Shown one piece after another: positions 13,747 through 42,104 of a stretch of 64,000 nucleotides of DNA. Under the pieces are notes generated by a model that was not told the origin of the DNA, made no database searches, and saw only the letters and a list, made by a program, of their open reading frames with translations. The stretch's first letter is position 1; each line of letters starts with the position of its first letter. The translations under genes and the position numbers were made by a program. The stretch is from Heptranchias perlo (Eukaryota): assembly GCF_035084215.1 (NCBI RefSeq), contig NC_090353.1, positions 25,296,001-25,360,000 of the forward strand, written 5' to 3'.

Positions 13747-13783
13747 ATGTGGAGCAACATTATCACAATCCTTTTCATGTCTG
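13747..13783 (+). CDS. Selectin-like gene exon 1 (signal peptide)
   Basis: ATG TGG AGC...TCT G|gtatga encodes MWSNIITILFMS-G. Its phase 1 donor fits the lectin exon acceptor, giving the hydrophobic leader MWSNIITILFMSGSPYISES. Confidence 0.7.
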
Positions 13784-15477: not shown

Positions 15478-16312
15478 TTAGGGCCATTGCTCATCACTGT
15501 CTTTATCAATGATTTGGATGAAGGCATCGGGGGTACAGTCCTTATGTTTGCTGATTACACAAAGGGGTTCATGAGAGTTGGGATTTTGGACAAAATAAAT
15601 AGACTGCAGGCTGATTAAGATACAGTGGGAGAATATGTGGCATACGTCCTTCAATGTCAATAAATGCATTTGGGTTACAGTAATTCCAGCTATATGTACG
15701 GTATGCATGGTTACGCTCAAAAGGCTGCAGAACAGGTGAAGGAGTTGAAGTTCATGAAAATTGGAGGTTCATGACCAGTGCTGCAAGGCTGTAGAGAAAG
15801 TGAACAGGGTGTTAGGATATAGAGTTAGGACTGTTTAATACAAAACTAGAAATATGATACTTACCCTGTACGAGACCTTGGTTTGGCTGCATCTAGAATA
15901 CTGTGCCCAGACTTGGTCCCTTCACATGCTGCAGGATAGCAAGACCCTGGACGGCTACCAGAGTGACACCAAGTCTCAGAGCTTTTACCAGGACAGGCTC
16001 AGGGAACTGGGTCATTTTTCATTGGAGAAATGTAGATTCCAAGGGGATATGATTGAGGTCTTTAAAATAACCTAATTAACTGAGCAGTGGGGATTGATCC
16101 CTATTGATTTCCATGTTCTAACAGCTTTCAAGAATTATATTTGAATTGAAAGTGTTACAATGAGCAAGCACCAAGCTACCAATATGAACATAAGAAGGGA
16201 CTAAATTCTGTTCAGGTGAATTGGTTATTTGAGCTTGATGTTGCAAAGGCTGCATCTTATCTGGATGGGACAGGCTGGATGGATCACTTCTTGTCCTACA
16301 TTTTCTTATGTT
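15478..16312 (+). mobile_element. Degraded CR1 LINE (RT C-terminal part and 3' tail), interrupted by an inverted duplication
   Basis: LGPLL..FINDLD, FAD and LYETLVWLHLEYCAQTWS...RLRELGHFSLEKCRFQGDMIEVFK motifs; tail TTTTCTTATGTTC near 16301. Confidence 0.85.
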
Positions 16313-16427
16313 CATATTGGTAGCTTGGTGCTTGCTCATTGTAACACTTTCAATTCAAATATAATTCTTGAAAGCTGTTAGAACATGGAAATCAATAGGG
16401 ATCAATCCCCACTGCTCAGTTAATTAG
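16072..16427. repeat. Perfect inverted repeat with 125-bp arms (16072-16196 / 16303-16427) and a 106-bp spacer
   Basis: The arms read as exact reverse complements (CTAATTAACTGAGCAG...CATAAGAA / TTCTTATG...CTGCTCAGTTAATTAG). Confidence 0.95.
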
Positions 16428-16974
16428 ATTGTGTAAAATTCAATATCTGGTATCGATGCACAATACTGGATTTCCAACTATCATTTCATTGCCCAGAATC
16501 AGAATAAATTCACACTATTGCAATTGGAATTCAGTGCGGGGCATTATCAACTAATGGACTTTTTATCCTACAAAGCTTTTAAAACTTAAAATGAGTTTCC
16601 ATGAAATAAATAATATTGACATTTGATGGAGGATGGGCTATGGGAATTCTTTCACTTACAGGAAAGGCCATTTTAACTTACTTTGTATGTGTGTTGAAAG
16701 GTGTACAAGATAAATTTTTGGTGAAGTTTTTCAAGTTTTAATGTGGCTATATAATGTAGTAAAAGTCTTGTCTATGCACATACTTCCTGTAAATGCATTC
16801 ATTTCCTGTTGCACTTTTTGTGTCACTCTTTTTCTGTCACAGTCATACTATTGCTTTCATGCTACTTCTGTCAAACTTGAATTTTTCTATTCAGTCCTCC
16901 TGGTTGAACCTCCCAGCTAGGTGGTGCTGTGGGACAAATGTTGCTTTGTACTTACCTGTGATTGGATAGAGAGG

Positions 16975-18525
16975 ATCACATAAACATACGAAAATAACGG
17001 ACAACAAAAGTGTAGCTGGTCTATCAAGCCTGTCCCACACAATTATATTGTAAGTGAGCATCATGACTCCCGACCTACTAGCAGTCATGTAATCTCCTGG
17101 GAGAGGACAAAAAAACCCTCAGCCAATCCAGGAGGGAGAAAAGGATTCTGGGAAATTCCTATCTGACCACAGAAGGCAATCAAAATGAGTTCCAGGAGTC
17201 CACAGTGACCATGAAGCACATCACCCAACATCCCACCTACCTTTTGTACACAGTGATATCAGCCTCAGCCAGGAACTCATCCAACTTTCTTTTGGAAATT
17301 TGCAGCGATTCCACAATCATTGAACAAACAACTTGTTCCAAAGGTCGTCTGCGAAAAGAAAAACCTCCTCACGTCTAACGTGGTTCAAGGTTTATGTAAC
17401 TTACACGCTTGTTCCTGGTTCCCCCTAACCTACCTAATTCAAAGAGTCGATCCATATGGACACATTCTAGTTTCTTTATTATTGTAAATATCTCAATCAA
17501 ATCCCCCCAGAGTGTACACTTTCCAGTGTAAAAGGACCGAGCTCTTTAAGGGCTTTTGAACTAGGTATCAATCTAGTCACTCTCCTTTGAATCTTTTTCC
17601 AAGGCCTCTATATCACCCACCATGTAAGGGTTCACAGTATTCTAGATGAGGCCTAACCAAGGTCTTCTACAAGGACACTACAGTGCTTTTTGTCTTATAT
17701 TGGATTATCTGAGCTACACATCCTAATGCTCTATTTGCTTTTGCTATAGCCTTTTGCCATGGATCGTGAACATTTATGATCATAATAAACATTTATTTAG
17801 AGACTCATGCATTGTAACACGTAGGACTATTTCCTGCTCAAAGACTTTAGTTAGGAACCTCGCATAGTGTGAACGTGCTTGGCAAAATCCCTACCACGTG
17901 CATTACACTACATTTATTTATGTTAAATGCCATCTGGCAGCACATTCCCCCATTGCATCTAGATCTGATTGTAGTAGTTTATTCTCATCCAAGGTCCTAA
18001 CATCCAAGCCTAAATCTCTGTGTTATCCATAAACTAGTGGACAGTTTTCCCAACACCGTCATCAAAATCATTAATATAAATCGTGACATGGTCCCCTCAG
18101 CAGTGATCTCCAGGTCTGTCAGAAGTAAGAAGGCTTAACTGAAACAGCAGTTGTCTACAGTTAGGTTCTGCCAGTGTTACCCCTTCCCTGTTGTTTATTT
18201 CTTCTTTTCTTTCCCTTGTATTTGTTTTGAAGGACCTTTTTCTCCCCATGACCTGTTGCCTGCTGTCTTCACTCCTGGCCACCATTACTCATGCAGGTCT
18301 CTCCTCCCAGTGAACCTGACTCCAGTCACTCCTTCCCACTCACTGCCTGTCATCTTTCCCCAGTCAGATGCCTCGTCCCGATGCTCATCTGCACCCTTGT
18401 GCCACCCACTGCCACCCCTGCCATGTGATCTGTCAGCAATCCTTTCTTCCTGCTGGCTCTATTTTAGTGCTTACCTGCCCACTTCCCACAGCCCAAACCT
18501 CAGGCTTTCTGTCCCCTCTTGGTAA
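16975..18525 (-). mobile_element. Degraded CR1 LINE on the minus strand; the part from ~17330 onward is included in the tandem unit
   Basis: Paralogous copies translate FYKNLVRPHLEYCVPFWSP..DIKALEKIQRRITRWIPSLK on the minus strand. Confidence 0.8.
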
Positions 18526-18982
18526 TCCTCTCTTGCTACTGGTTACGCAGCACTGTTTTTGAAGATATGCGCTAGAATGAGGAGACCCACTGAGGCAAGT
18601 ATCCTCACAAATCTTCCATTTCATTCACTAATGAAGTTGAAATCCTGTTCCCAGCCAAGGTGAAACAGGCATTGTTTTCAAACAAAAATATTGGCCACAT
18701 CCTTCAATACTTTGAGGTGTGATGGAAGAACAATGTGATATGCATTTTGTTACAGCAAAATAATTGAGGATACGTATCCATATTGATTTGTAGAATTGAA
18801 CTGTGCTTTTGATGGATACTAGTTCTCTTAATACCTGGTGGTCATACAGATTACATTACTGTTTAATTATTGCATTCTCAGCAGCCAATCAGACTACATA
18901 ATGTAAATAATTAATCTACAAATGACAGTGAATAAGTCACATTTGAATGATAATAATAATCCTTATGCTACTATCTCTACAG

Positions 18983-19090
18983 TCCAATGCCAAGCAACAA
19001 CCTGCAACAGAAGAGGCACGTGTATTGAATTGGCTAATGGTTTTAGTTGCACCTGTGACCAAGGTTTTTATGGAAATAATTGTGAAAATG
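18983..19090 (+). CDS. Selectin-like gene EGF exon copy 1
   Basis: ctacag|TC...AAT G|gtaaga, 108 bp, phase 1-1. Encodes QCQATTCNRRGTCIELANGFSCTCDQGFYGNNCEN, a 6-Cys selectin-type EGF. Confidence 0.9.
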
Positions 19091-19211
19091 GTAAGAGCTG
19101 GAGAAAAAAAATGGCATAAAATATGTATTCAAGAAGGTAATCCAGACTCACTGCTTCTCTTGAGGACACTGACTCTTGCTGGAGTAGGACTTCATATGTA
19201 CTGGTGGTCCT

Positions 19212-20592
19212 TTGGTACCTACAGGATTCCTTTTTTACCCAGTATGTGAGAAGCCCATCAAGAGATGAATCACTGCTGGATCTACTAATGGGAAATGAAC
19301 CAGAACAGATGAGAGAAGTAAGCATAGGGGAACATCTAGGCAATAGCAATCATAACATGACAAGGTTTAAAATAATGATTGAGAAAGACATAAGTAAGAC
19401 AAAGACCAAAGTAATAGATTGGAAAAAAGCTAATGTTGAGGGGATGAGAATGGAACTAGGTCAGGTAAACTGTAAAGAATTTTTGACAGACAAAGAAATA
19501 GAATAACTGTGGATAATATTCAAAACGGTGATCAATAGAACTCAGGGAGAATATATTCCTCTAAAAAGCAAGAACAAACTAGCCAATAATGAAACACCAC
19601 GGATGAATAAAGAGATAAGGGTAAAATTGAAACTAAAGAAAAAGGCATACTTTAAGTACATAGACAATAAAGGAGAGGATGACAATCTTGTAGTTAATAC
19701 AAAGGAAGAATGCGTCAAAATGCAAAAGCACGTTAATAAATTTGCAAAATGGGCATGTAATTGGCAAATTAATTTCAATATAGATAAGTGTGAGGTGGTG
19801 CATTTTTGTAGGAAGAATAAAGAGGCCACATACTGCTTGGATAATAAGTCTAAACAGGATAGAGGAGCAATGGGATCTAGAGGTACAGATATACAAATCA
19901 CTAAAAGTAGCGATGCAGGTTAATAAGGACATAAAAAAGGCAAATCAAGCACTAGGGATCATTTCTAGAGGGACAGAATTGAAAAGCAAAGAAATTACGT
20001 TAAACTTGTATAGAACATTGGTTAGAACATACTTGGAGTATATGTGCACAGTTCTGGTCTCCATAATATAGAAAGGATGTAAAGGCATTGGCGGGAGTGC
20101 AAAAAAGATTCACAAGAATGATACCAGAAATGAGAGGAAGTACTTATCGGGAAAGGCTGAACAGGCTGGGGCTCTTTTCTCTAGAAAAGAGATGGCTGAG
20201 GGGTGACCTGATAGAGCTCTTTAAGACAATGATAGGGTTTTGATAGAGTAGACGTAGAGAAAATGTTTCCACTTGTGGGGGAGTCCAAAACTAGAAGTCA
20301 CAAATATAAAATAGTCACTAATAAATTCAACAGGGAATTCAGGAGAAACTTCTTTACCCAAAGAGTGGTAAGAATGCGGAACGCATTACCACAAGGAGTA
20401 GTTGGGGCAAATAGCATAGATGCATGTAAAGGGAAGCTAGATAAGCACATGAGGGAGAAAGGAATGGAAGGGTATCCTGAAAGGGTTAGATGAGGTCGGG
20501 GGGGAGGAGGCTCATGTTGAGCATAAACACCGGCAAAGACCAGTTGGGCTGTGCCTGTTTCTGTGCGGTAGTTGTGATGTAACTCGATGTAA
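19212..20592 (+). mobile_element. Internally deleted CR1 LINE at the unit junction (also ~22506-23875, ~25789-27169, ~29083-30462)
   Basis: LQDSFFTQYVRSPSRDESLLDLLMGNE...HLGNSNHN (end of the endonuclease) is joined, after a large RT deletion, to WACNWQINFNIDKCEVVHF and RRNFFTQRVV. Ends in a GATGTAAC-repeat tail. Confidence 0.9.
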
Positions 20593-22276
20593 CTTGTACC
20601 AAAGGTCCTCTGCGAAAAGAAATACCTCCTCACATCTAACTAGTTCAATGCTTATGTAACTTAAACGCATATCCCTGGTTCGCCCTAACCTATCTAATTC
20701 AAAGAGTTGATCCACATGGACACAGTCTAGTTTCTATATTATTGTTAATATCTCAATCAAATCCCCCCAAAGTGTACACTTTCCAGAGTAAAAGGACCGA
20801 GCTCTCTAAACCTACCATGATAACTCATGGCTTTTAAACTAGGTATCCATCTTGTGATCCTCCTTTGAATCTTTTCCAGGGCCTTTATATCACCCACCGT
20901 GTCAGGGGACCAAAATGGGACACAGTATTCTAGATGAGGCCTAACCAAGTTCTTGTAGAAGGACACTGTAGTGCTTTTTTTCTTGTATTGGATTATATCA
21001 GCTATACGTCCTAATGCTCTATTTGCTTTTGCTATAACCTTTCACCACTCATCGTGAACATTTATGATCATTATAAACATTTATTTAGAGACTCATGCAT
21101 TATGACACTAGGACTATTTCTTGCTCAAAAGACTTTAGTTAGGAACCCTGCACAGTGTGAACATGCTTGGCAAAACCTCTACCCGTGTGCACTGCACTAC
21201 ATTTATCTATGTCAAATGCCATCTGGCAGATGTGGACCTATTTCCCCATTGCATCTAGATCTGATTGTAGTTGTTTTTTTTCATCCAAGGTCCTAACATC
21301 CAAGCATAAATCTGTGTTATCCATAAACTAATGGACAATTTCCCCAACACCTCCATCGAGATCATTAATATAGATCGTGACATGGTCCCGTCAGCAGTGA
21401 CCTCCAGGTCTGTCACAGGTCAGAAGGCTTAACTGAAACAGCAGTTGCCTACAGTTAGGTTCTGCCAGTGTTACCCCTTCCCTGTTGTTTATTTCTTCTT
21501 TTCTTTCCCTTGTATTTGTTTTGAAGGACCTTTTTTTCCCCATGACCTGTTGCCTGCTGTCTTCACTCCTGGCCACCATTACTCATGCAGGTCTCTCCTC
21601 CCAGTGAACCTGACTCCAGTCACTCCTTCCCACTCACTGCCTGTCATCTTTCCCCAGTCAGATGCCTCGTCCCGATGCTCATCTGCACCCTTGTGCCACC
21701 CACTGCCACCCCTGCCATGTGATCTGTCAGCAATCCTTTCTTCCTGCTGGCTCTATTTTAGTGCTTACCTGCCCACTTCCCACAGCCCAAACCTCAGGCT
21801 TTCTGTCCCCTCTTGGTAATCCTCTCTTGCTACTGGTTACGCAGCACTGTTTTTGAAGATATGCGCTAGAATGAGGAGACCCACTGAGGCAAGTATCCTC
21901 ACAAATCTTCCATTTCATTCACTAATGAAGTTGAAATCCTGTTCCCAGCCAAGGTGAAACAGGCATTGTTTTCAAACAAAAATATTGGCCACATCCTTCA
22001 ATACTTTGAGGTGTGATGGAAGAACAATGTGATATGCATTTTGTTACAGCAAAATAATTGAGGATACGTATCCATATTGATTTGTAGAATTGAACTGTGC
22101 TTTTGATGGATACTAGTTCTCTTAATACCTGGTGGTCATACAGATTACATTACTGTTTAATTATTGCATTCTCAGCAGCCAATCAGACTACATAATGTAA
22201 ATAATTAATCTACAAATGACAGTGAATAAGTCACATTTGAATGATAATAATAATCCTTATGCTACTATCTCTACAG

Positions 22277-22384
22277 TCCAATGCCAAGCAACAACCTGCA
22301 ACAGAAGAGGCACGTGTATTGAATTGGCTAATGGTTTTAGTTGCACCTGTGACCAAGGTTTTTATGGAAATAATTGTGAAAATG
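22277..22384 (+). CDS. EGF exon copy 2
   Basis: Identical 108-bp exon with intact ag/gt sites. Confidence 0.85.
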
Positions 22385-25300
22385 GTAAGAGCTGGAGAAA
22401 AAAAATGGCATAAAATATGTATTCAAGAAGGTAATCCAGACTCACTGCTTCTCTTGAGGACACTGACTCTTGCTGGAGTAGGACTTCATATGTACTGGTG
22501 GTCCTTTGGTACCTACAGGATTCCTTTTTTACCCAGTATGTGAGAAGCCCATCAAGAGATGAATCACTGCTGGATCTACTAATGGGAAATGAACCAGAAC
22601 AGATGAGAGAAGTAAGCATAGGGGAACATCTAGGCAATAGCAATCATAACATGACAAGGTTTAAAATAATGATTGAGAAAGACATAAGTAAGACAAAGAC
22701 CAAAGTAATAGATTGGAAAAAAGCTAATGTTGAGGGGATGAGAATGGAACTAGGTCAGGTAAACTGTAAAGAATTTTTGACAGACAAAGAAATAGAATAA
22801 CTGTGGATAATATTCAAAACGGTGATCAATAGAACTCAGGGAGAATATATTCCTCTAAAAAGCAAGAACAAACTAGCCAATAATGAAACACCACGGATGA
22901 ATAAAGAGATAAGGGTAAAATTGAAACTAAAGAAAAAGGCATACTTTAAATAAAGGAGAGGATGACAATCTTGTAGTTAATACAAAGGAAGAATGCGTCA
23001 AAATGCAAAAGCACGTTAATAAATTTGCAAAATGGGCATGTAATTGGCAAATTAATTTCAATATAGATAAGTGTGAGGTGGTGCATTTTTGTAGGAAGAA
23101 TAAAGAGGCCACATACTGCTTGGATAATAAGTCTAAACAGGATAGAGGAGCAATGGGATCTAGAGGTACAGATATACAAATCACTAAAAGTAGCGATGCA
23201 GGTTAATAAGGACATAAAAAAGGCAAATCAAGCACTAGGGATCATTTCTAGAGGGACAGAATTGAAAAGCAAAGAAATTACGTTAAACTTGTATAGAACA
23301 TTGGTTAGAACATACTTGGAGTATATGTGCACAGTTCTGGTCTCCATAATATAGAAAGGATGTAAAGGCATTGGCGGGAGTGCAAAAAAGATTCACAAGA
23401 ATGATACCAGAAATGAGAGGAAGTACTTATCGGGAAAGGCTGAACAGGCTGGGGCTCTTTTCTCTAGAAAAGAGATGGCTGAGGGGTGACCTGATAGAGC
23501 TCTTTAAGACAATGATAGGGTTTTGATAGAGTAGACGTAGAGAAAATGTTTCCACTTGTGGGGGAGTCCAAAACTAGAAGTCACAAATATAAAATAGTCA
23601 CTAATAAATTCAACAGGGAATTCAGGAGAAACTTCTTTACCCAAAGAGTGGTAAGAATGCGGAACGCATTACCACAAGGAGTAGTTGGGGCAAATAGCAT
23701 AGATGCATGTAAAGGGAAGCTAGATAAGCACATGAGGGAGAAAGGAATGGAAGGGTATCCTGAAAGGGTTAGATGAGGTCGGGGGGGAGGAGGCTCATGT
23801 TGAGCATAAACACCGGCAAAGACCAGTTGGGCTGTGCCTGTTTCTGTGCGGTAGTTGTGATGTAACTCGATGTAACTTGTACCAAAGGTCCTCTGCGAAA
23901 AGAAATACCTCCTCACATCTAACTAGTTCAATGCTTATGTAACTTAAACGCATATCCCTGGTTCGCCCTAACCTATCTAATTCAAAGAGTTGATCCACAT
24001 GGACACAGTCTAGTTTCTTTATTATTGTTAATATCTCAATCAAATCCCCCCAAAGTGTACACTTTCCAGAGTAAAAGGACCGAGCTCTCTAAACCTACCA
24101 TGATAACTCATGGCTTTTAAACTAGGTATCCATCTTGTGATCCTCCTTTGAATCTTTTCCAGGGCCTTTATATCACCCACCGTGTCAGGGGACCAAAATG
24201 GGACACAGTATTCTAGATGAGGCCTAACCAAGTTCTTGTAGAAGGACACTGTAGTGCTTTTTTTCTTGTATTGGATTATATCAGCTATACGTCCTAATGC
24301 TCTATTTGCTTTTGCTATAACCTTTCACCACTCATCGTGAACATTTATGATCATTATAAACATTTATTTAGAGACTCATGCATTATGACACTAGGACTAT
24401 TTCTTGCTCAAAAGACTTTAGTTAGGAACCCTGCACAGTGTGAACATGCTTGGCAAAACCTCTACCCGTGTGCACTGCACTACATTTATCTATGTCAAAT
24501 GCCATCTGGCAGATGTGGACCTATTTCCCCATTGCATCTAGATCTGATTGTAGTTGTTTTTTTTCATCCAAGGTCCTAACATCCAAGCATAAATCTGTGT
24601 TATCCATAAACTAATGGACAATTTCCCCAACACCTCCATCGAGATCATTAATATAGATCGTGACATGGTCCCGTCAGCAGTGACCTCCAGGTCTGTCACA
24701 GGTCAGAAGGCTTAACTGAAACAGCAGTTGCCTACAGTTAGGTTCTGCCAGTGTTACCCCTTCCCTGTTGTTTATTTCTTCTTTTCTTTCCCTTGTATTT
24801 GTTTTGAAGGACCTTTTTTTCCCCATGACCTGTTGCCTGCTGTCTTCACTCCTGGCCACCATTACTCATGCAGGTCTCTCCTCCCAGTGAACCTGACTCC
24901 AGTCACTCCTTCCCACTCACTGCCTGTCATCTTTCCCCAGTCAGATGCCTCGTCCCGATGCTCATCTGCACCCTTGTGCCACCCACTGCCACCCCTGCCA
25001 TGTGATCTGTCAGCAATCCTTTCTTCCTGCTGGCTCTATTTTAGTGCTTACCTGCCCACTTCCCACAGCCCAAACCTCAGGCTTTCTGTCCCCTCTTGGT
25101 AATCCTCTCTTGCTACTGGTTACGCAGCACTGTTTTTGAAGATATGCGCTAGAATGAGGAGACCCACTGAGGCAAGTATCCTCACAAATCTTCCATTTCA
25201 TTCACTAATGAAGTTGAAATCCTGTTCCCAGCCAAGGTGAAACAGGCATTGTTTTCAAACAAAAATATTGGCCACATCCTTCAATACTTTGAGGTGTGAT

Positions 25301-25559
25301 GGAAGAACAATGTGATATGCATTTTGTTACAGCAAAATAATTGAGGATACGTATCCATATTGATTTGTAGAATTGAACTGTGCTTTTGATGGATACTAGT
25401 TCTCTTAATACCTGGTGGTCATACAGATTACATTACTGTTTAATTATTGCATTCTCAGCAGCCAATCAGACTACATAATGTAAATAATTAATCTACAAAT
25501 GACAGTGAATAAGTCACATTTGAATGATAATAATAATCCTTATGCTACTATCTCTACAG

Positions 25560-25667
25560 TCCAATGCCAAGCAACAACCTGCAACAGAAGAGGCACGTGT
25601 ATTGAATTGGCTAATGGTTTTAGTTGCACCTGTGACCAAGGTTTTTATGGAAATAATTGTGAAAATG
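25560..25667 (+). CDS. EGF exon copy 3
   Basis: Identical 108-bp exon with intact ag/gt sites. Confidence 0.85.
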
Positions 25668-28600
25668 GTAAGAGCTGGAGAAAAAAAATGGCATAAAATA
25701 TGTATTCAAGAAGGTAATCCAGACTCACTGCTTCTCTTGAGGACACTGACTCTTGCTGGAGTAGGACTTCATATGTACTGGTGGTCCTTTGGTACCTACA
25801 GGATTCCTTTTTTACCCAGTATGTGAGAAGCCCATCAAGAGATGAATCACTGCTGGATCTACTAATGGGAAATGAACCAGAACAGATGAGAGAAGTAAGC
25901 ATAGGGGAACATCTAGGCAATAGCAATCATAACATGACAAGGTTTAAAATAATGATTGAGAAAGACATAAGTAAGACAAAGACCAAAGTAATAGATTGGA
26001 AAAAAGCTAATGTTGAGGGGATGAGAATGGAACTAGGTCAGGTAAACTGTAAAGAATTTTTGACAGACAAAGAAATAGAATAACTGTGGATAATATTCAA
26101 AACGGTGATCAATAGAACTCAGGGAGAATATATTCCTCTAAAAAGCAAGAACAAACTAGCCAATAATGAAACACCACGGATGAATAAAGAGATAAGGGTA
26201 AAATTGAAACTAAAGAAAAAGGCATACTTTAAGTACATAGACAATAAAGGAGAGGATGACAATCTTGTAGTTAATACAAAGGAAGAATGCGTCAAAATGC
26301 AAAAGCACGTTAATAAATTTGCAAAATGGGCATGTAATTGGCAAATTAATTTCAATATAGATAAGTGTGAGGTGGTGCATTTTTGTAGGAAGAATAAAGA
26401 GGCCACATACTGCTTGGATAATAAGTCTAAACAGGATAGAGGAGCAATGGGATCTAGAGGTACAGATATACAAATCACTAAAAGTAGCGATGCAGGTTAA
26501 TAAGGACATAAAAAAGGCAAATCAAGCACTAGGGATCATTTCTAGAGGGACAGAATTGAAAAGCAAAGAAATTACGTTAAACTTGTATAGAACATTGGTT
26601 AGAACATACTTGGAGTATATGTGCACAGTTCTGGTCTCCATAATATAGAAAGGATGTAAAGGCATTGGCGGGAGTGCAAAAAAGATTCACAAGAATGATA
26701 CCAGAAATGAGAGGAAGTACTTATCGGGAAAGGCTGAACAGGCTGGGGCTCTTTTCTCTAGAAAAGAGATGGCTGAGGGGTGACCTGATAGAGCTCTTTA
26801 AGACAATGATAGGGTTTTGATAGAGTAGACGTAGAGAAAATGTTTCCACTTGTGGGGGAGTCCAAAACTAGAAGTCACAAATATAAAATAGTCACTAATA
26901 AATTCAACAGGGAATTCAGGAGAAACTTCTTTACCCAAAGAGTGGTAAGAATGCGGAACGCATTACCACAAGGAGTAGTTGGGGCAAATAGCATAGATGC
27001 ATGTAAAGGGAAGCTAGATAAGCACATGAGGGAGAAAGGAATGGAAGGGTATCCTGAAAGGGTTAGATGAGGTCGGGGGGGAGGAGGCTCATGTTGAGCA
27101 TAAACACCGGCAAAGACCAGTTGGGCTGTGCCTGTTTCTGTGCGGTAGTTGTGATGTAACTCGATGTAACTTGTACCAAAGGTCCTCTGCGAAAAGAAAT
27201 ACCTCCTCACATCTAACTAGTTCAATGCTTATGTAACTTAAACGCATATCCCTGGTTCGCCCTAACCTATCTAATTCAAAGAGTTGATCCACATGGACAC
27301 AGTCTAGTTTCTTTATTATTGTTAATATCTCAATCAAATCCCCCCAAAGTGTACACTTTCCAGAGTAAAAGGACCGAGCTCTCTAAACCTACCATGATAA
27401 CTCATGGCTTTTAAACTAGGTATCCATCTTGTGATCCTCCTTTGAATCTTTTCCAGGGCCTTTATATCACCCACCGTGTCAGGGGACCAAAATGGGACAC
27501 AGTATTCTAGATGAGGCCTAACCAAGTTCTTGTAGAAGGACACTGTAGTGCTTTTTTTCTTGTATTGGATTATATCAGCTATACGTCCTAATGCTCTATT
27601 TGCTTTTGCTATAACCTTTCACCACTCATCGTGAACATTTATGATCATTATAAACATTTATTTAGAGACTCATGCATTATGACACTAGGACTATTTCTTG
27701 CTCAAAAGACTTTAGTTAGGAACCCTGCACAGTGTGAACATGCTTGGCAAAACCTCTACCCGTGTGCACTGCACTACATTTATCTATGTCAAATGCCATC
27801 TGGCAGATGTGGACCTATTTCCCCATTGCATCTAGATCTGATTGTAGTTGTTTTTTTTCATCCAAGGTCCTAACATCCAAGCATAAATCTGTGTTATCCA
27901 TAAACTAATGGACAATTTCCCCAACACCTCCATCGAGATCATTAATATAGATCGTGACATGGTCCCGTCAGCAGTGACCTCCAGGTCTGTCACAGGTCAG
28001 AAGGCTTAACTGAAACAGCAGTTGCCTACAGTTAGGTTCTGCCAGTGTTACCCCTTCCCTGTTGTTTATTTCTTCTTTTCTTTCCCTTGTATTTGTTTTG
28101 AAGGACCTTTTTTTCCCCATGACCTGTTGCCTGCTGTCTTCACTCCTGGCCACCATTACTCATGCAGGTCTCTCCTCCCAGTGAACCTGACTCCAGTCAC
28201 TCCTTCCCACTCACTGCCTGTCATCTTTCCCCAGTCAGATGCCTCGTCCCGATGCTCATCTGCACCCTTGTGCCACCCACTGCCACCCCTGCCATGTGAT
28301 CTGTCAGCAATCCTTTCTTCCTGCTGGCTCTATTTTAGTGCTTACCTGCCCACTTCCCACAGCCCAAACCTCAGGCTTTCTGTCCCCTCTTGGTAATCCT
28401 CTCTTGCTACTGGTTACGCAGCACTGTTTTTGAAGATATGCGCTAGAATGAGGAGACCCACTGAGGCAAGTATCCTCACAAATCTTCCATTTCATTCACT
28501 AATGAAGTTGAAATCCTGTTCCCAGCCAAGGTGAAACAGGCATTGTTTTCAAACAAAAATATTGGCCACATCCTTCAATACTTTGAGGTGTGATGGAAGA

Positions 28601-28853
28601 ACAATGTGATATGCATTTTGTTACAGCAAAATAATTGAGGATACGTATCCATATTGATTTGTAGAATTGAACTGTGCTTTTGATGGATACTAGTTCTCTT
28701 AATACCTGGTGGTCATACAGATTACATTACTGTTTAATTATTGCATTCTCAGCAGCCAATCAGACTACATAATGTAAATAATTAATCTACAAATGACAGT
28801 GAATAAGTCACATTTGAATGATAATAATAATCCTTATGCTACTATCTCTACAG

Positions 28854-28961
28854 TCCAATGCCAAGCAACAACCTGCAACAGAAGAGGCACGTGTATTGAA
28901 TTGGCTAATGGTTTTAGTTGCACCTGTGACCAAGGTTTTTATGGAAATAATTGTGAAAATG
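28854..28961 (+). CDS. EGF exon copy 4
   Basis: Identical 108-bp exon with intact ag/gt sites. Confidence 0.85.
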
Positions 28962-31900
28962 GTAAGAGCTGGAGAAAAAAAATGGCATAAAATATGTATT
29001 CAAGAAGGTAATCCAGACTCACTGCTTCTCTTGAGGACACTGACTCTTGCTGGAGTAGGACTTCATATGTACTGGTGGTCCTTTGGTACCTACAGGATTC
29101 CTTTTTTACCCAGTATGTGAGAAGCCCATCAAGAGATGAATCACTGCTGGATCTACTAATGGGAAATGAACCAGAACAGATGAGAGAAGTAAGCATAGGG
29201 GAACATCTAGGCAATAGCAATCATAACATGACAAGGTTTAAAATAATGATTGAGAAAGACATAAGTAAGACAAAGACCAAAGTAATAGATTGGAAAAAAG
29301 CTAATGTTGAGGGGATGAGAATGGAACTAGGTCAGGTAAACTGTAAAGAATTTTTGACAGACAAAGAAATAGAATAACTGTGGATAATATTCAAAACGGT
29401 GATCAATAGAACTCAGGGAGAATATATTCCTCTAAAAAGCAAGAACAAACTAGCCAATAATGAAACACCACGGATGAATAAAGAGATAAGGGTAAAATTG
29501 AAACTAAAGAAAAAGGCATACTTTAAGTACATAGACAATAAAGGAGAGGATGACAATCTTGTAGTTAATACAAAGGAAGAATGCGTCAAAATGCAAAAGC
29601 ACGTTAATAAATTTGCAAAATGGGCATGTAATTGGCAAATTAATTTCAATATAGATAAGTGTGAGGTGGTGCATTTTTGTAGGAAGAATAAAGAGGCCAC
29701 ATACTGCTTGGATAATAAGTCTAAACAGGATAGAGGAGCAATGGGATCTAGAGGTACAGATATACAAATCACTAAAAGTAGCGATGCAGGTTAATAAGGA
29801 CATAAAAAAGGCAAATCAAGCACTAGGGATCATTTCTAGAGGGACAGAATTGAAAAGCAAAGAAATTACGTTAAACTTGTATAGAACATTGGTTAGAACA
29901 TACTTGGAGTATTGTGCACAGTTCTGGTCTCCATAATATGGAAAGGATGTAAAGGCATTGGAGGGAGTGCAAAAAAGATTCACAAGAATGATACCAGAAA
30001 TGAGAGGAAGTACTTATCGGGAAAGGCTGAACAGGCTGGGGCTCTTTTCTCTAGAAAAGAGATGGCTGAGGGGTGACCTGATAGAGCTCTTTAAGACAAT
30101 GATAGGGTTTTGATAGAGTAGACGTAGAGAAAATGTTTCCACTTGTGGGGGAGTCCAAAACTAGAAGTCACAAATATAAAATAGTCACTAATAAATTCAA
30201 CAGGGAATTCAGGAGAAACTTCTTTACCCAAAGAGTGGTAAGAATGCGGAACGCATTACCACAAGGAGTAGTTGGGGCAAATAGCATAGATGCATGTAAA
30301 GGGAAGCTAGATAAGCACATGAGGGAGAAAGGAATGGAAGGGTATCCTGAAAGGGTTAGATGAGGTCGGGGGGGAGGAGGCTCATGTTGAGCATAAACAC
30401 CGGCAAAGACCAGTTGGGCTGTGCCTGTTTCTGTGCGGTAGTTGTGATGTAACTCGATGTAACTTGTACCAAAGGTCCTCTGCGAAAAGAAATACCTCCT
30501 CACATCTAACTAGTTCAATGCTTATGTAACTTAAACGCATATCCCTGGTTCGCCCTAACCTATCTAATTCAAAGAGTTGATCCACATGGACACAGTCTAG
30601 TTTCTATATTATTGTTAATATCTCAATCAAATCCCCCCAAAGTGTACACTTTCCAGAGTAAAAGGACCGAGCTCTCTAAACCTACCATGATAACTCATGG
30701 CTTTTAAACTAGGTATCCATCTTGTGATCCTCCTTTGAATCTTTTCCAGGGCCTTTATATCACCCACCGTGTCAGGGGACCAAAATGGGACACAGTATTC
30801 TAGATGAGGCCTAACCAAGTTCTTGTAGAAGGACACTGTAGTGCTTTTTTTCTTGTATTGGATTATATCAGCTATACGTCCTAATGCTCTATTTGCTTTT
30901 GCTATAACCTTTCACCACTCATCGTGAACATTTATGATCATTATAAACATTTATTTAGAGACTCATGCATTATGACACTAGGACTATTTCTTGCTCAAAA
31001 GACTTTAGTTAGGAACCCTGCACAGTGTGAACATGCTTGGCAAAACCTCTACCCGTGTGCACTGCACTACATTTATCTATGTCAAATGCCATCTGGCAGA
31101 TGTGGACCTATTTCCCCATTGCATCTAGATCTGATTGTAGTTGTTTTTTTTCATCCAAGGTCCTAACATCCAAGCATAAATCTGTGTTATCCATAAACTA
31201 ATGGACAATTTCCCCAACACCTCCATCGAGATCATTAATATAGATCGTGACATGGTCCCGTCAGCAGTGACCTCCAGGTCTGTCACAGGTCAGAAGGCTT
31301 AACTGAAGCAGTAGTTGTCTACAGTTAAATTCGGCCAGTGTTACCCCTTCCCTGCTTTTTATTTCTTCTTTTCTTTCCCTGGTACTTTTTTTGAAGGCCT
31401 GTTGCCTGCTGCCTTCACTCCTGGCCACTATTACTCCTGTGGGTCTTGCCTTCCAGTTAACCTGACTCCAGTCACTCCTTCCCACTCACTGCCTGTTGCC
31501 TCTCCCCAGTCAGGTGCCTCATCTGGATGCTCACCTGCACCCTTGTGCCACCCACTGCCACCCCTGCCATGTGATCTGTCAGCAGTTCTTTCTTCCAGCT
31601 GGCTCTATTTTAGTGCTTACCTGCCCACTTCCCACAGCCCAAACCTCAGGTTTTCTGTCCCCTCTTGGTAATCCTCTCTTGCTACTGGTTACGCAGCACT
31701 GTGTTTGAAGATATGAGCTGGAATGAGGAGCCCATTGAGGCAAGTATCCTCACAAATCTTCCATTTCATTCACTAATGAAGTTGAAATCCTGTTCCCAGC
31801 CAAGGTGAAACAGGCATTGTTTTGAAACAAAAATATTGGCCACATCCTTCAATACTTTGAGGTGTGATGGAAGAACAATGTGATATGCATTTTATCACAG

Positions 31901-32127
31901 CAAAATAATTGAGGATACGTATCCATATTAATTTGTAGAATTGAACTGTGCTTTTGTTGGATACTAGTTCTCTTAATACCAGGTGGTCATACAGATTACA
32001 TTACTGTTTAATTAATGCATTCTCAGCAGCCAATCAGACTACATAATGTAAATAATTAATCTACAAATGACAGCGAATAAGTCACATTTGAATGATAATA
32101 TTAATGCTTGTGCTAATATCTCTACAG

Positions 32128-32235
32128 TCCAATGCCAAGCAACAACCTGCAACAGAAGAGGCACATGTATTGAATTGGCTAATGGTTTTAGTTGCACCTG
32201 TGACCAAGGTTTTTATGGAAATAATTGTGAAAATG
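32128..32235 (+). CDS. EGF exon copy 5
   Basis: 108-bp exon encoding the same peptide, with one synonymous change (ACG>ACA) and intact splice sites. Confidence 0.9.
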
Positions 32236-32924
32236 GTAAGAGCTGGAGAAAAAAATGGCATAAAATATGTATTCAAGAAGGTAATCCAGTCTCACTGCTT
32301 CTTTTGAGAACATGTTTCAAACTGTTGCTCTGGCTGAGATCAGTTAACTCAGCACAGCCCATGAATGAAATGGGATCTTTTGGCCTTGTTAGCTCTGCAT
32401 CACACCGGGCAGAGTCTTTGATAATTGAGACAGTGCATGTTTTTTAAGTGAATGTAGATCAAAAATCCAAAATTATTTCCCATTTGCAACCTTTGCTTTC
32501 ATTCCTGCTTAAGTCAATCATTTTAACTTTTATATATTTGCCCAGACTTACTGATTACAGCATATAGGTTTTCAAAGTCCCTAAAGGTCCAGAACAGGTC
32601 TCAGAGAGTCCACATAGTCCTCAGGTTTCTGCCCATATGTCATCAGGATTTTGCATTTATTGACTTACTTGTACATTATTTCATTTGCTGTATAATAATA
32701 AATATTTTCTGCAACAATAGCGCCATTTTCCTTTAGGTAGCTAGCACTGTCTTTCAGAAGTTAGGACAGGGTCTCCTGGTACGTCTCAATACTTTTAGTG
32801 GTGGCCCCACACAGAAAAGTTTGAAAACCATTTGTTTACAGCACAAATTACAACGTGTGGCATGACCTTTTGGTCTCTGTATTCATAACACAAAAAACCC
32901 TGCATTAATCTCTTTGTTTTACAG

Positions 32925-33110
32925 TTACGTCATGCCCAGTCATTACAAAACCAGACCATAGCGCAGTTAAATGTGAAGGAACACACGGCAAGAACCATTT
33001 CCAATCTGTGTGCACATTTATTTGTGATCAAGGATTTATTCTGAATGGGAATAATTCATCAACATGCCGAGCGTCAGGCTCCTGGACGACCTACAATACA
33101 ATCTGCCATG
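32925..33110 (+). CDS. Selectin-like gene sushi/CCP exon
   Basis: ttttacag|TT...CAT G|gtcagt, 186 bp, phase 1-1. Encodes VTSCPVITKPDHSAVKCEGTHGKNHFQSVCTFICDQGFILNGNNSSTCRASGSWTTYNTICH, the 6-Cys CCP pattern and exon size typical of selectins. Not in the ORF track. Confidence 0.92.
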
Positions 33111-34289
33111 GTCAGTGTGCTAGTTTATTAAAAGCAAATTGTAATATTTGATAAAGTTTATGGTTAGATGAATTTGAATAAGTTACTGGTTCCTTCAAAG
33201 TGAGTTTTTGTGTAAGTTCTGACATTTTTGATGCAATATAATTTGCTATGTTGGCACGAGGTAACTTTTCTTATATTAAACCTGTAAGCATATTTAATAC
33301 ACAGCTTTATAAAACAGCATCAATGGTACCGTGCCACTGCAGGTTCTAAATATTAGTTGATCCCCCAGGGTGTTGAGACAAAGTGCAGTATTCAAATCAA
33401 GGCTAGTGGGGGTTTGGAGGAAGAAGGCAGATGGGAGAAAGTGGGAGAGAGAAGGGTCTTGAACCCACAATTTTTTGACTCAGAGGCAAGAGTACTACCA
33501 ACTGAGCCAAGCAGAGTTCTTAGCCCTTTATGGTGAGAATATCTTCACTTCTCCTGATGTCTAGGTATGTTGTTGTAACGTGCCCAGGATGTTACCAAAA
33601 TGTACCTAATTTTTCCTTGTCTATTGGATCAATCCTCTGCCTGCACAAGACCTTCCTCTTTGAAACTTCCAAACGAACTCAATAATTTGAACAGTTCACA
33701 CTCATAAATATTCCCCAGCAGTTATAAAGTTGAATAAATTTGTCAGCTAAATTTAAAAGTAACTGCCAATCATACACATAATCTAGCAAATCACACAATA
33801 TATTTTGTTTGAATGTGACATGTCTCCCCAATCCAGTCGATATGAACAGAAACATATGAAATATTTGTGTCAAATAAAATTTTTACCACATCAGCTACAT
33901 GTCAAATCTTACCTCATCATGGCACCTATCTCCAAGCAAAAGAAAAACCTGAATAAACTAGATTACATAATTCAGCTATCTTATCCTTGCCAAGCTTTAT
34001 TGACCCTGCACCTAGCTTATCTAATTCAAATATCTTGTATTCATTTTCAAATCTCTCTATGGCCATGGCTCCAACTAAACGTTTCAGACTCTTATTTATT
34101 ACTTCCCCATTTTCTCAACTCTACTACCAGTGGCCAATCATTCAGTCACTATGTGTTGCCCATTTGAACTCTCGTATTAAACCACTGTCACACCACTTCT
34201 CTCACTTCCTTCAAAAGCTTCTTAAAAATATCTCCTCCACCATATTTCCCTCCCCCCACTTAATTTCGGTGTCAGCTTGGCTCATGCCC

Positions 34290-34670
34290 ACCTGAGGTAG
34301 CAGGTTCTGGGTTCAAGCCCCATTCTAGAAATGGAGCACATAATCTAGGCTGACACTTCAGTGCAGGAGTGAGGAGGTGCTGCATTGTCAGATGAAATAT
34401 TAAACCGAAGCCCTGACCGTCTTTTCAGGTGGACAAAAAAGATCCCTTAGCATTATTCAATGAAGAATAGGAAGATTTTGTGGTGTTCTGGCCAAAATTC
34501 CTCCTTCAAATAACAGCACCCAAAATCAGATTAACTGGACGTTTATCTAATGTTTCTGTTTATGCATAAATTGGCTGTCGCATTTGCCTACAAAACAACT
34601 AAAACTACACTTCAATATTACTTAATTGGCTATAAAGTGCTTTGGGACATCCTGAAGATGTGATATAAAT
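34290..34670 (+). mobile_element. tRNA-derived Deu-domain-type SINE (second copy on - at ~57000-57340)
   Basis: B-box-like GGTTCAAGCCC, then GAGCACATAATCTAGGCTGACAC...GTGCTGCATTGTCAGATGA core and an L2-like tail. Confidence 0.6.
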
Positions 34671-35139
34671 TCAAATTCTTTCTTTTTTTTTCTGTGCCCA
34701 CTTGATGTTCTCTTTCTCCTCATTAAGTGCCACAAGGCATTCTCCTGAGTGAGGGGGTCTATACCAATATAAATTGTTGTTGTTGAGGGAACAGGTAACA
34801 TCAATGAAACGACCGCCTTGTAATCAATCCTGGGCATCCATTATTGCCTAAACCTTGCTGAATGCTCCAACTCTGGATTTTAAATTGTTAATTTACATAA
34901 TTTTTCCTTTTTAAAGAAAAATTTGACTATTATTGAAAATAGTCAGCTAATAGTTGGCAACATGAGAATCTTGTGGACACAAGAACTCTGCGTATGCATG
35001 CTTCAGACGGTAAATTTTGATTGTTTTCAAAGCGCAGATGGGAGTGGCCACACTCTCAAAACATTTATATTATCTCTCCGTAGGTTTGTAAAGTACCCAG
35101 GACCCCCTGAACACTTTTTAAACTACAACAACAACAATA

Positions 35140-35480
35140 AGAATAACAACTTGCATTTATATATCGCCTTTAACGTAGTAAAACGTCCCCAGGCCACTTC
35201 ACAGGAGCATTATCGAACAAAATTTGACACTGAGCCACATTAGGAGATATTAGGACAGGTGATCAAAAGCTTGTCAAAGAAGCAGGTTTTAAGGAGGGTC
35301 TTAAAGGAGAAGAGAGAGGTAGAGAGGCGGAGAGGTTTAGGGAAGGAATTCCAGAGCTTAGGGCCTAGGCAGTGATTTGAAGGCAAAATTGGGGATGTGC
35401 AAGAGGCCAGAATTGGAAGGGTGCAGAGACCTTGGAGGGTGGTAGGGCTGGAGGAGGTTACAGAGATAGGGAGGGACTAG
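35140..35480 (-). mobile_element. L2-type LINE 3' end (similar relics at ~41560-42000 and ~45455-45790)
   Basis: (AAC)n tail followed by AACTTGCATTTATATATCGCCTTTAACGTAGTAAAACGTCCC and a purine-rich body. Confidence 0.7.
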
Positions 35481-35598
35481 GCTTGACACTGCACAGGATT
35501 TATACTCCATGCAGTGTTAACCTGGAGAGACCCATCCTCCAGGGAATCTCACACCACATCTCTCTGGAGTCAGATCAGAACCCAACTTCAGAGTCATA

Positions 35599-37636: not shown

Positions 37637-39301
37637 GTACTATTATTCTTGTATTGATGTAAAGTCCAGACCATTTCAACGGTGTCACAAAAGTAACTTT
37701 ATAATTGCATTCTAGGATAACATTTAGCTGTGTGAAAAGCTTGTTGCTGGCATGCTAAAAAAAACCCTTGCTGAACTAAAGAAGCAGTGTTTATTAAAAT
37801 TTAATTGAAGGAAAACAATTGCAAAGGATTTAGTCTCAACTGCCATCTGCAAACTCTTACAAACATTGCACTCTGACATAACGGCCACCTATTTTCCAAT
37901 GCAGAAAATGCAAACAATAACAAGAATCTTGTATGTAGGAAAAAATGCCTAGGCCAGAATTTATTTCTTGAATTTCACAGCTTCCTCAAATTTCACCACA
38001 CAGGACTGAAAAATGTGTGTTAGTTCCTGTTTGCTTAGCTTTTTATAAAGCGGAAAGAACGTGGCAGCTAGTTCGAAACAGTTTAGATTTTCCACGTGAT
38101 ATAACCACACTGCACCGAGCCCCCAAAGGCCCCACGCATTGAAAACTGAAAAATGAAGCAATAGGATTTATTGAGGAAGGTTCTTTGAACAGAGGTTTGG
38201 CTCCCACATTACATAAAGACTAATATAGTTCACTAGAACCCTTCTAATGGAAATATTACCGTAGCACCAAACCATTACCCAATTGCTGTATTGAGAAAAT
38301 GGTGTTAAAATATTGGTATTTGTCAATGCAACACTACAAATACCCATACTCTGGTGTTCTCCTTCAACGTAATGAAAGTTTTTGACAGGAAAGAGTGGAA
38401 TTAACATTCTCTGTGCTAAAGAGAATAGCCTTCAGTGATAGAAACTCCCCATTCCCACCCCATATTGTTGTTGTACAGCAATGGTTGCAACTCACCCATG
38501 TTCCCCCATTAAGTCCTTTAAATAAAAGTTTCATCCAACTGTTTCAAGAGCTCAGCAGATTGACAAATGGGCCTGCAAATATAGAATGAACAAAATGCCT
38601 CATACCTCACCATTTGTGTAAAACTATACAAGTTTTACAAAATCCAGTAAAAATATTTCAAAACAAAATGATGCCAATTGGCAGCCATGAGTAAGTATGA
38701 ATACAATGCTCATACGCAGCTTCTTCTGGTTGCACATGGACATCAAGTAATTAAAATTTTAGTGGCATTTTAGCTTCTTTAGTTTCAGTGAAGTCTATTT
38801 ATTATAAACTGTAACACATACCAGGAGGGGTCATCATTAACTGACCTTTACTGATCTGTTTATTCCTTCACAGCCACTAACTGTCACATTCTTAAAGATA
38901 CTCTATTTTGTTTCTTTTTTTACATGTCACTATGCCACATAATCATTCCTTGAATGAAAGATTGGCACAGGTGAATTATTGCCAGGCCTCTGCCAATGGC
39001 ATCCATGGTTTGATTACAAGGAGCTTTGCAGGACCATTGTAGGATGACTTGGCTGTCAGTTTTTCCCCTTTACATGAGGAAATGCCAAGTCTTTAGTCTC
39101 TACATCTGCCTGGCAGTTGGGACCAGGAACTTACCATATGGGGAATCACAGGCACAAACCCAACATGTTTGGTATAATTTTCCGAATATGGAAACTTTCC
39201 ATATCCAAAATTAACCCTGTTGTGCCAACACCACACCTAGTTCACTGTGTGTAGCAATTCATTAATCTAATACTCTCATTTTCTGTGTTGTGGATTTCTA
39301 G

Positions 39302-39406
39302 GCACTGTTAATTACCTCAAATTAATCCTAATTACTGTTACCATGGGAGCAGTAGCTCTTTTGGTCCTATCAGTGATCTGTTGGTGGAAGAGGAGAAATG
39401 GTCAAG
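39302..39406 (+). CDS. Selectin-like gene transmembrane exon
   Basis: tttctag|GC...CAA G|gtaata, 105 bp, phase 1-1. Encodes GTVNYLKLILITVTMGAVALLVLSVICWWKRRNGQ, a hydrophobic helix followed by a basic stop-transfer. Confidence 0.88.
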
Positions 39407-39636
39407 GTAATATGTTGTGTTGATACAGTAACCATCATTATAATACTTAGTATTTCACTTTTCATTAAGAAAGAAGAAAGAACTTGCATTTATATAGCAC
39501 CTTTCACAACCTCAGGATGTCCCAAAGCATTTTACAGCCAATGAAGTACTTTTAACATATTGTTACTGTTGTAATGTAGGAAACACCAATTTGCACATGA
39601 ATCTACAGGTATTCTATACAGTTAAACCTAATTATT

Positions 39637-42079: not shown

Positions 42080-42104
42080 AGCAAAACAATGCCTGCAATG
42101 ACCT
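42080..42104 (+). CDS. Selectin-like gene cytoplasmic microexon (25 bp)
   Basis: Strong polypyrimidine tract, cttag|A...CCT|gtgagt. Phase 1-2 exactly bridges the TM exon to the last exon; encodes EQNNACNDL. Confidence 0.7.

What the first reader, a model, noticed from the sequence alone, without database searches (positions are those of the whole stretch)
17330..32310. EGF exon cassette amplified as a 3.29-kb tandem array: a potentially length-tunable receptor stalk
Seen: five symmetric (phase 1-1, 108 bp) exons with intact splice sites all encode the same peptide. Units carry private variants: an 11-bp deletion near 22948; TATTGTGC, ATATGG and GGAGGG near 29910-29962; CTAT vs CTTT near 20735/30605 vs 24018/27312. 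These argue against simple assembly stutter. Inference: any copy number or exon skipping preserves frame, so the distance of the lectin from the membrane could vary between alleles (CNV) or isoforms.
Basis: partly seen in the sequence, partly recalled or inferred. Interest (0 to 1): 0.75.

Follow-up and report, generated by a model that had tools for sequence, protein, structure and literature searches.

The report
Shark selectin-like receptor with amplified stalk
A shark gene for a selectin-like, likely sugar-binding surface protein carries five tandem copies of one spacer (EGF) exon, and its relatives in other sharks and rays carry one to four, so this uncharacterised receptor likely varies its reach by gaining and losing whole exons.

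Summary
The array is real. Five 108-bp phase 1-1 EGF exons encode one peptide in 3.27-3.29-kb units. An old two-copy duplication recombined once, and the chimeric unit was then copied; the four internal units differ at only 7 events. Read-derived DNA contigs over the unit have 3.0-6.8 times single-copy depth, which excludes 1-2 copies. Two RNA runs each give a 138-nt contig that fits an EGF-EGF splice; one run gives a transcript without the transmembrane exon (one individual, possibly the source).

The gene is lectin-EGF5-CCP-TM-tyrosine tail, named 'E-selectin-like' by NCBI in Heptranchias perlo. It lies outside the true selectin cluster, is only 25-30% identical to those lectins and lacks their sialyl-Lewis-x contacts. 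Orthologue models have 1-4 EGFs, some with identical neighbours.

Length variation between species is shown. Variation between individuals and any adaptive tuning are untested. The mechanism is a known kind (LPA/DMBT1-type exon VNTR); I found no paper on this receptor family in four searches.

The parts
13747..13783 (+). Signal-peptide exon (37 bp, ends phase 1)
   Evidence: ATG and GT donor; matches the start of the NCBI model P0001
14050..14415 (+). C-type lectin exon (366 bp, phase 1-1) with EPN and WND motifs
   Evidence: Pfam Lectin_C E=2e-15; 100% to P0001
17330..18143 (.). 5' flank of old copy A: decayed CR1 LINE fragment on the minus strand, 10.9% diverged from the same part of the other copies
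   Evidence: the same segment is a dispersed repeat in this genome; CR1 label recalled from the ORF translations
18128..18143 (.). Crossover interval in copy-A coordinates, between the last B-type and first A-type diagnostic column; the same switch occurs in all three chimeric units
   Evidence: alignment columns 836 and 853; junction alleles seen in DNA contig X4 record 9
18140..31303 (.). Four near-identical internal units (3294, 3283, 3294, 3293 bp)
   Evidence: 7 variant events in total
18983..19090 (+). EGF exon 1
   Evidence: Pfam EGF E=1.2e-7
19169..20590 (+). Spacer X: truncated CR1-like LINE on the plus strand, present once per unit
   Evidence: weak RVT_1 hit E=0.005, below cut-off; ORF remnants; CR1 label recalled
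22277..22384 (+). EGF exon 2
25560..25667 (+). EGF exon 3
28854..28961 (+). EGF exon 4
31308..32312 (.). 3' part of old copy B, 3.5-9% diverged from copy A
32128..32235 (+). EGF exon 5 (one synonymous difference)
32925..33110 (+). Single CCP/sushi exon (186 bp, phase 1-1, six cysteines)
   Evidence: Pfam Sushi E=9.9e-10; covered by RNA contig 18; no second CCP exon found by tblastn with two-CCP orthologues
39302..39406 (+). Transmembrane exon (105 bp, phase 1-1), absent from RNA contig 18
   Evidence: orthologue matches; length arithmetic
42080..42104 (+). 25-bp cytoplasmic exon
   Evidence: AG/GT and open frame; fits the 26 letters between CCP and last exon in RNA contig 18
46219..46363 (+). 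Last coding exon with four tyrosine motifs and the stop codon
   Evidence: orthologue match E=4e-13; RNA contigs 18 and 31; motifs

Best explanation
The window holds a tandem array of one frame-preserving EGF exon, likely made by recent unequal crossing-over, inside a shark selectin-like receptor gene, where the repeated EGFs are predicted to act as a spacer that lifts a likely sugar-binding lectin off the membrane. History (inferred from the divergence pattern): a 1.84-kb segment holding the exon duplicated long ago (copies A and B, about 11% apart), and the part around the exon was later homogenised (about 3.5%). One crossover between A and B made a chimeric 3.29-kb unit, and further unequal crossovers raised the count to five exons. 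Protein (gene model shown, function inferred): signal peptide, Ca-dependent EPN-type lectin, up to five EGFs, one CCP, TM and a tail of about 64 residues with tyrosine motifs, 467 aa in all. It would bind mannose/fucose/GlcNAc-ended glycans rather than sialyl Lewis x, and would signal through SH2 adaptors (YxN motifs). Skipping the TM exon would give a secreted form. EGF number is most likely a tolerated, recurrently drifting trait of the family, not a dedicated switch.
For: Shown: array anatomy, one shared crossover point, and two derived alleles shared by the three chimeric units. DNA contig depth over the unit is 3.0-6.8x the mean of single-copy contigs (7 of 7 unit values; 6 and 7 flank contigs in X3 and X4). 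A tandem back-joint 32312>29040 occurs in both DNA runs. A 138-nt EGF contig occurs in 2 of 2 RNA runs; in X5 the letter before the exon is G (an EGF end), not the lectin's T, and 29+108+1=138. All 12 exon combinations tested stay open to the stop. Orthologue models carry 1-4 EGFs and 1-2 CCPs, with identical adjacent EGFs in Hypanus and Hemitrygon. The EGF exon has the same 108-bp length and 3' boundary as this genome's true selectin EGF exons. E-selectin is the best PDB match (E=7.5e-22). From papers: CCP number sets P-selectin's reach and rolling ability (PMC2120654, abstract); soluble P-selectin arises by skipping the TM exon (PMC7355470, passages).
Against: All reads come from one sample that may be the assembly's source, and the tool warns that contig depth is not a copy number. 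The two halves of the unit give different ratios (5.5-6.8x versus 3.0-3.9x), so the exact count is not fixed. The RNA junctions are inferred from lengths and one letter, not read out, and an EGF-EGF join could come from a circular RNA. No contig shows five EGFs in one transcript, use of exon 5's allele, or inclusion of the TM exon. NCBI's own model stops after three EGFs at a cryptic exon. Orthologue counts come from automated gene models, several truncated. Ligand, cell type and signalling are untested.
Confidence: 0.72

Rival explanations
1. Adaptive length tuning: EGF count is polymorphic among alleles and/or spliced into a ladder, and selection uses it to set the lectin's reach.
For: The units are young enough for ongoing unequal exchange. 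Carcharodon NCBI isoforms X1 and X3 differ by one EGF and Stegostoma X1 and X2 by 60 aa, one CCP. Several lineages show near-identical neighbouring EGFs. Length matters for P-selectin (PMC2120654, abstract). Depth over the exon-bearing half (3.0-3.9x) is slightly below the assembled 4 copies, as a shorter second allele would give.
Against: No second individual, no ladder seen, no function measured. Depth noise among single-copy contigs is about 20-25%. Symmetric exons in repeat-rich introns turn over without selection. The exon is not significantly more conserved than its immediate flank (1/108 versus 17/490, P=0.22; versus the wider flank P=0.035).
Confidence: 0.25
2. The genomic array is real but most extra exons are skipped or yield only circular RNA, so the protein normally has one or two EGFs, or is mainly secreted.
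For: RNA shows only that at least one EGF-EGF join exists. The only contig crossing the TM position lacks the TM exon. NCBI's model does not reach exons 4-5.
Against: All five exons have intact AG/GT sites and exons 1-4 have identical surroundings. Full-length orthologue models include 2-4 EGFs plus TM. The join appears in 2 of 2 RNA runs.
Confidence: 0.15
3. Assembly stutter: a one- or two-copy locus was over-expanded by the assembler.
For: The internal units are about 99.9% identical and their private variants were not verified in reads.
Against: Unit depth is at least 2.5x even against the deepest single-copy contig. The chimeric junction with its derived allele is present in a read-derived contig (X4 record 9), which needs at least three copies. 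Multi-EGF orthologues exist. An error of one unit either way remains possible.
Confidence: 0.06

Closest known systems
Selectins (E-, L-, P-selectin; C-type lectin group IV)
   Same: Domain order lectin-EGF-CCP-TM; one exon per domain in phase 1; 108-bp EGF exon with the same 3' boundary as this genome's selectins; EPN/WND calcium site; best PDB match; a TM-skipped form as in soluble P-selectin (PMC7355470, passages).
   Different: Five EGFs and one CCP instead of one EGF and 2-9 CCPs. Lectin only 25-30% identical to the genome's true selectins, which cluster on another contig (C9) and form their own clade. Tyr48, Glu92 and the following loop are not kept. Tail of about 64 aa with four tyrosines, against 17 aa in L-selectin (PMC5820395, passages).
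Exon-containing protein-coding VNTRs: LPA KIV-2, DMBT1, NEB
   Same: Kilobase units that each carry a domain exon, near-identical core units and degenerate flanking repeats. PMC11201333 (passages) lists units of 5104, 4059 and 10,553 bp and 0.02% sequence difference among DMBT1 repeats.
   Different: Here the unit carries one EGF exon in a membrane lectin receptor; population polymorphism is not shown.
Group XIV C-type lectins (CD93, thrombomodulin, CD248, CLEC14A)
   Same: Type I membrane proteins with a lectin domain followed by several EGFs (search listing abstracts).
   Different: Recalled: their sushi-like domain precedes the EGFs, they have a mucin stalk and are intronless or nearly so. 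Here CCP follows the EGFs and each domain is its own exon.
NCBI-annotated elasmobranch orthologues ('E-selectin-like', 'L-selectin-like', 'jagged-like', 'notch 2-like')
   Same: Same lectin (57-69% identity), EGF spacing, CCP, TM and tyrosine tail.
   Different: They have 1-4 EGFs, usually a distinct first EGF followed by a second type, and 1-2 CCPs. Here all five EGFs are one sequence.

Membership tests
Selectin (group IV) | Order lectin-EGF-CCP(n)-TM-tail | tested here: met
Selectin (group IV) | A single EGF between lectin and CCPs | tested here: not met
   five exons; orthologue models 1-4; definition in PMC5820395 passages
Selectin (group IV) | Lectin 60-70% identical among family members (PMC7355470, mammalian values) | tested here: not met
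   25-30% to the six C9 lectin hits, which are 43-52% identical to a mammalian P-selectin
Selectin (group IV) | Calcium/fucose site residues (EPN, following Glu, WND; numbering recalled) | tested here: met
   alignment
Selectin (group IV) | Sialyl-Lewis-x contacts Tyr48 and Glu92 (PMC7355470 passage) and the Tyr94 loop (recalled) | tested here: not met
   Asn and Leu at those columns, loop absent; ray orthologues keep the Glu
Selectin (group IV) | Six-cysteine CCP (recalled feature) | tested here: met
   translation
Selectin (group IV) | Location in the selectin gene cluster | tested here: not met
   this gene is on C32 next to a BTB-PHR gene; true selectins lie on C9 at 57.17-57.46 Mb
Selectin (group IV) | Short cytoplasmic tail | tested here: not met
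   about 64 aa with four Tyr motifs
Selectin (group IV) | Mediates rolling adhesion under flow | not testable with these tools
   needs a flow assay
Exon-containing coding VNTR (LPA/DMBT1 type) | Kilobase tandem units each with a frame-preserving exon | tested here: met
Exon-containing coding VNTR (LPA/DMBT1 type) | Near-identical core units with degenerate flanking repeats | tested here: met
Exon-containing coding VNTR (LPA/DMBT1 type) | Repeated exons are spliced in tandem | tested here: inconclusive
   at least one EGF-EGF join inferred in 2 of 2 RNA runs; number per transcript unknown
Exon-containing coding VNTR (LPA/DMBT1 type) | Copy number varies among individuals | not testable with these tools
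   all same-species runs listed are one sample
Group XIV C-type lectins | Sushi-like domain before the EGFs, mucin stalk, intron-poor gene (recalled) | tested here: not met
   gene model
ITIM-bearing inhibitory receptor | Conserved (S/I/V/L)xYxx(I/V/L) motif (consensus recalled) | tested here: not met
   the last motif fits in this species only; in shark orthologues the -2 residue is acidic, and the conserved feature is YxN

The most novel reading that the evidence does not exclude
Sharks and rays keep a separate, selectin-related receptor lineage, possibly a whole-genome-duplication sister of the selectin cluster that bony vertebrates lost. It uses EGF exons rather than CCP repeats as a variable-length stalk, couples the lectin to a tyrosine signalling tail, and tunes its reach within species by an active exon VNTR and exon skipping.
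Probability: 0.2. Interest if true: 0.7.

Novelty: new variant of a known kind. Interest (0 to 1): 0.42.

Why it matters
Selectins set their reach with CCP number and keep one EGF. This family inverts that design, and its EGF count changes repeatedly across sharks and rays, with one expansion caught while the units are still 99.9% identical. If count is polymorphic and functional, it is a natural length series for testing how spacer length controls lectin binding and signalling, and a record of an otherwise unstudied branch of selectin-type receptors. If count is neutral, it remains a clean example of exon amplification by unequal crossover and a correction to misleading annotations (E-selectin-like, jagged-like, notch-like; the NCBI model here is truncated).

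Tried and rejected
Structure prediction gave nothing usable: single-sequence P0007 pLDDT 34; P0001 with a 9-row alignment pLDDT 55.5, pTM 0.31, lectin mostly under 50. No fold search was run and no stalk length was measured. The profile search of representatives was crowded by multi-lectin proteins; only 3 of the 150 listed were single-stretch hits (P0004, P0005, P0095), so it cannot show absence in bony vertebrates. The EGF tree has only 36 columns and 8 of 17 inner branches open; it places the window's EGFs among first-position EGFs with weak support (80/78) and is not relied on. The lectin tree has three groups only, so it separates this family from selectins but cannot show that they are sisters. 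RNA contig depth is similar for EGF (7.8, 5.9) and downstream exons (5.9, 4.7), but contigs cannot rank parts of a gene, so I drew no conclusion. Lack of cover over the TM exon bin and the cryptic terminal exon is likewise uninformative. No holder is on record as RNA; X5 and X6 are guessed RNA, and X5 behaves as RNA because contig 18 joins exons 13 kb apart. The ITIM idea was dropped as a family feature. Excess depth over the CR1-derived half is not explained by close copies elsewhere: the best other copies are 68-83% identical, with 40 of 2073 candidates scored. An EGF-counting pattern was wrong and was redone. Three look-ups of earlier findings returned nothing. Four literature searches listed no paper on this gene; I saw listings and abstract starts only, apart from the six papers named in the full report. 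Supplements were not read, and the library lacks most subscription journals.

Full report
Observation. Self-BLAST of the window shows a tandem repeat from 17330 to 32312. Five 108-bp exons (18983, 22277, 25560, 28854, 32128) have AG/GT ends, phase 1-1 and the same EGF translation; exon 5 differs by one synonymous base (Pfam EGF). A DNA search of the genome finds only these five copies.

Anatomy and origin. Aligning the copies shows three layers. The 5' 0.84 kb of copy 1 differs from all others by 10.9%. From column 853 onward copy 5 is the odd one: 9% at first, 3.5% near the exon and 1 of 108 in the exon. The four internal units (18140-31303) differ at only 7 events. The array therefore reads A5'A3'-X-B5'A3'-X-B5'A3'-X-B5'A3'-X-B5'B3'. 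An old duplication (A, B) separated by a LINE fragment X recombined once in the interval 18128-18143. The chimeric unit picked up two new alleles absent from copy 1 (positions 18154 and 18242 in unit-1 coordinates) and was copied twice more. This history is inferred; it is the standard result of unequal crossing-over. The CR1 label for the intronic fragments is recalled from their ORF remnants (weak RVT_1 hit).

Is it real? Public runs holding the lectin exon at 0.30 or more are all one sample, possibly the source. I laid 4 of the 12 listed runs on 29040-46500. In DNA run X3 six single-copy contigs average 49 and unit contigs or joints give 270.6, 189.2 and 183. In X4 seven single-copy contigs average 20 and unit values are 135.9, 72.5, 60.8 and 90.8. 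Ratios are 3.0-6.8, and at least 2.5 against the deepest flank contig. Both runs show the tandem back-joint, and X4 shows the chimeric junction with its derived allele. One or two copies are excluded. The exact count is not fixed, because the two halves of the unit disagree and the tool warns that contig depth is not copy number.

Is it expressed? Both putative RNA runs give a 138-nt EGF contig with the allele of exons 1-4. In X5 it lies on 32127-32235: the letter before the exon is G, as at an EGF end and unlike the lectin's final T, and 29+108+1=138. This is what an EGF-EGF splice gives. It shows at least two EGFs joined, not five, and a circular RNA is not excluded. X5 contig 18 (509 nt) runs from 29 letters before the CCP exon, through CCP, 26 unlisted letters, and the last exon 13 kb away. 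Twenty-six equals the CCP's last base plus the 25-bp exon at 42080, so the 105-bp TM exon is absent: a frame-preserving, predicted secreted form (inferred from lengths). No contig showed TM inclusion.

The gene. Exons for signal peptide, lectin, five EGFs, one CCP, TM, a 25-bp exon and a last exon give a 467-aa open frame, and all 12 combinations of 0-5 EGFs with or without TM reach the natural stop. NCBI names it 'E-selectin-like' in Heptranchias perlo, 100% identical but truncated after three EGFs at a cryptic exon that recurs in every unit. It is single-copy. It sits just downstream of a BTB-PHR gene, with a GMIP/ARHGAP45-like exon about 135 kb further on (the names BTBD2 and ARHGAP45 are recalled). 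The genome's true selectins lie on contig C9; their lectins are 43-52% identical to mammalian P-selectin and only 25-30% to this one, and they form a separate clade. The ARHGAP-like exon has a weak paralogue on C9 (E=0.003) and one on C40, a faint hint, no more, that C32 and C9 are duplicated chromosomes.

Relatives. Three homologue searches and one profile search found orthologues named only from sharks and rays, plus one unnamed protein. Models with both lectin and TM have 4 EGFs (Stegostoma), 3 (Hypanus), 2 (Scyliorhinus torazame) and 1 (unnamed P0095). Partial models have 3 (Chiloscyllium punctatum, Hemitrygon, Mobula), 2 (Carcharodon X1, Cetorhinus) or 1 (Carcharodon X3, and two mis-started models); CCPs number 1-2. 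Adjacent EGFs are identical in Hypanus and Hemitrygon, 35 of 36 in Mobula and 34 of 36 in Stegostoma, so recent duplication or homogenisation recurs; identity at the protein level in the three rays could also reflect slow change since a shared duplication. Carcharodon isoforms X1 and X3 differ by exactly one EGF. These are automated annotations. The searches are word-limited or crowded and do not show absence elsewhere.

How it likely works. The lectin keeps EPN, the following Glu and WND, so Ca-dependent binding of mannose/fucose/GlcNAc-type sugars is predicted (established C-type lectin rule, recalled). It lacks Tyr48, Glu92 and the loop that selectins use for sialyl Lewis x, and has an aromatic insert after EPN and an extra cysteine pair. 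The EGFs have no calcium-binding consensus but fit the O-fucosylation pattern C2-X4-S/T-C3 (consensus recalled). By analogy with P-selectin, where constructs with 2-3 repeats fail to capture flowing neutrophils (PMC2120654, abstract), they would act as a spacer. At a recalled 2.5-3 nm per EGF, five versus one would add roughly 10-12 nm; my folds were too poor to check this. The tail has four tyrosines conserved in sharks, mostly YxN, so SH2-adaptor signalling is predicted; a canonical ITIM fits only this species.

Comparison and novelty. It works like a selectin in layout but fails membership on EGF number, lectin identity, ligand contacts, tail and location. The array is a known kind: LPA KIV-2, DMBT1 and NEB have kilobase exon-bearing units with near-identical cores and degenerate flanks (PMC11201333, passages). 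TM-exon skipping is known for P-selectin (PMC7355470, passages). The selectin definition is from PMC5820395 (passages). A Fugu lectin census (PMC514892, passages for 'selectin', 'EGF' and 'CETM') describes no protein of this layout in what I saw, and the whale shark genome paper (PMC8455134, passages) gave no relevant hit. Four searches listed no paper on this family. Supplements were not read.

Verdict. The most valuable result is the family: an uncharacterised elasmobranch selectin-like receptor with a recurrently changing EGF count, a signalling tail and a probable secreted form. Polymorphism and adaptive tuning remain untested. New variant of a known kind; interest 0.42.

Noticed in passing
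window 57860-58648: Inverted repeat of 322 bp at 99.7% identity with a 145-bp centre that includes a small near-palindrome; could be a fold-back element or an assembly artefact.
   Followed up: no
window 16069-16430: 128-bp inverted repeat at 99% in the intron between lectin and EGF exon 1.
   Followed up: no
window 8614-10326 and 35599-37636: Two oppositely oriented copies (72-82%) of a GC-rich element with a Myb/SANT-like ORF, probably a Harbinger-type transposon (label recalled); very high copy in read contigs.
   Followed up: partly
window 6185-6725 and 7942-8505: 90% identical direct duplication just downstream of the BTB-PHR gene's last exon.
   Followed up: no
window 17994, 21290, 24573, 27867, 31160: A cryptic acceptor followed by six codons and a stop recurs in every unit; NCBI's model ends there. 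If used, it would give secreted lectin-EGF(n) proteins.
   Followed up: partly
window 39302-39406: The TM exon is absent from RNA contig 18 of run X5, implying a secreted isoform.
   Followed up: partly
L007, L009-L011, L013, L014 (G000:C9 57.17-57.46 Mb): A cluster of at least six true selectin lectin exons; three have EPT in place of EPN, and two pairs are near-identical.
   Followed up: partly
window 1-2120; L019:7911-8432; L033:8378-8713: Neighbours: a BTB-PHR gene upstream and a GMIP/ARHGAP45-like exon downstream, the latter with weak paralogues on C9 and C40.
   Followed up: partly
P0031-P0035, P0009-P0011: NCBI models for Carcharodon, Cetorhinus, Hemitrygon and two others lack all or most of the lectin domain; probably truncated models, possibly real loss.
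   Followed up: no
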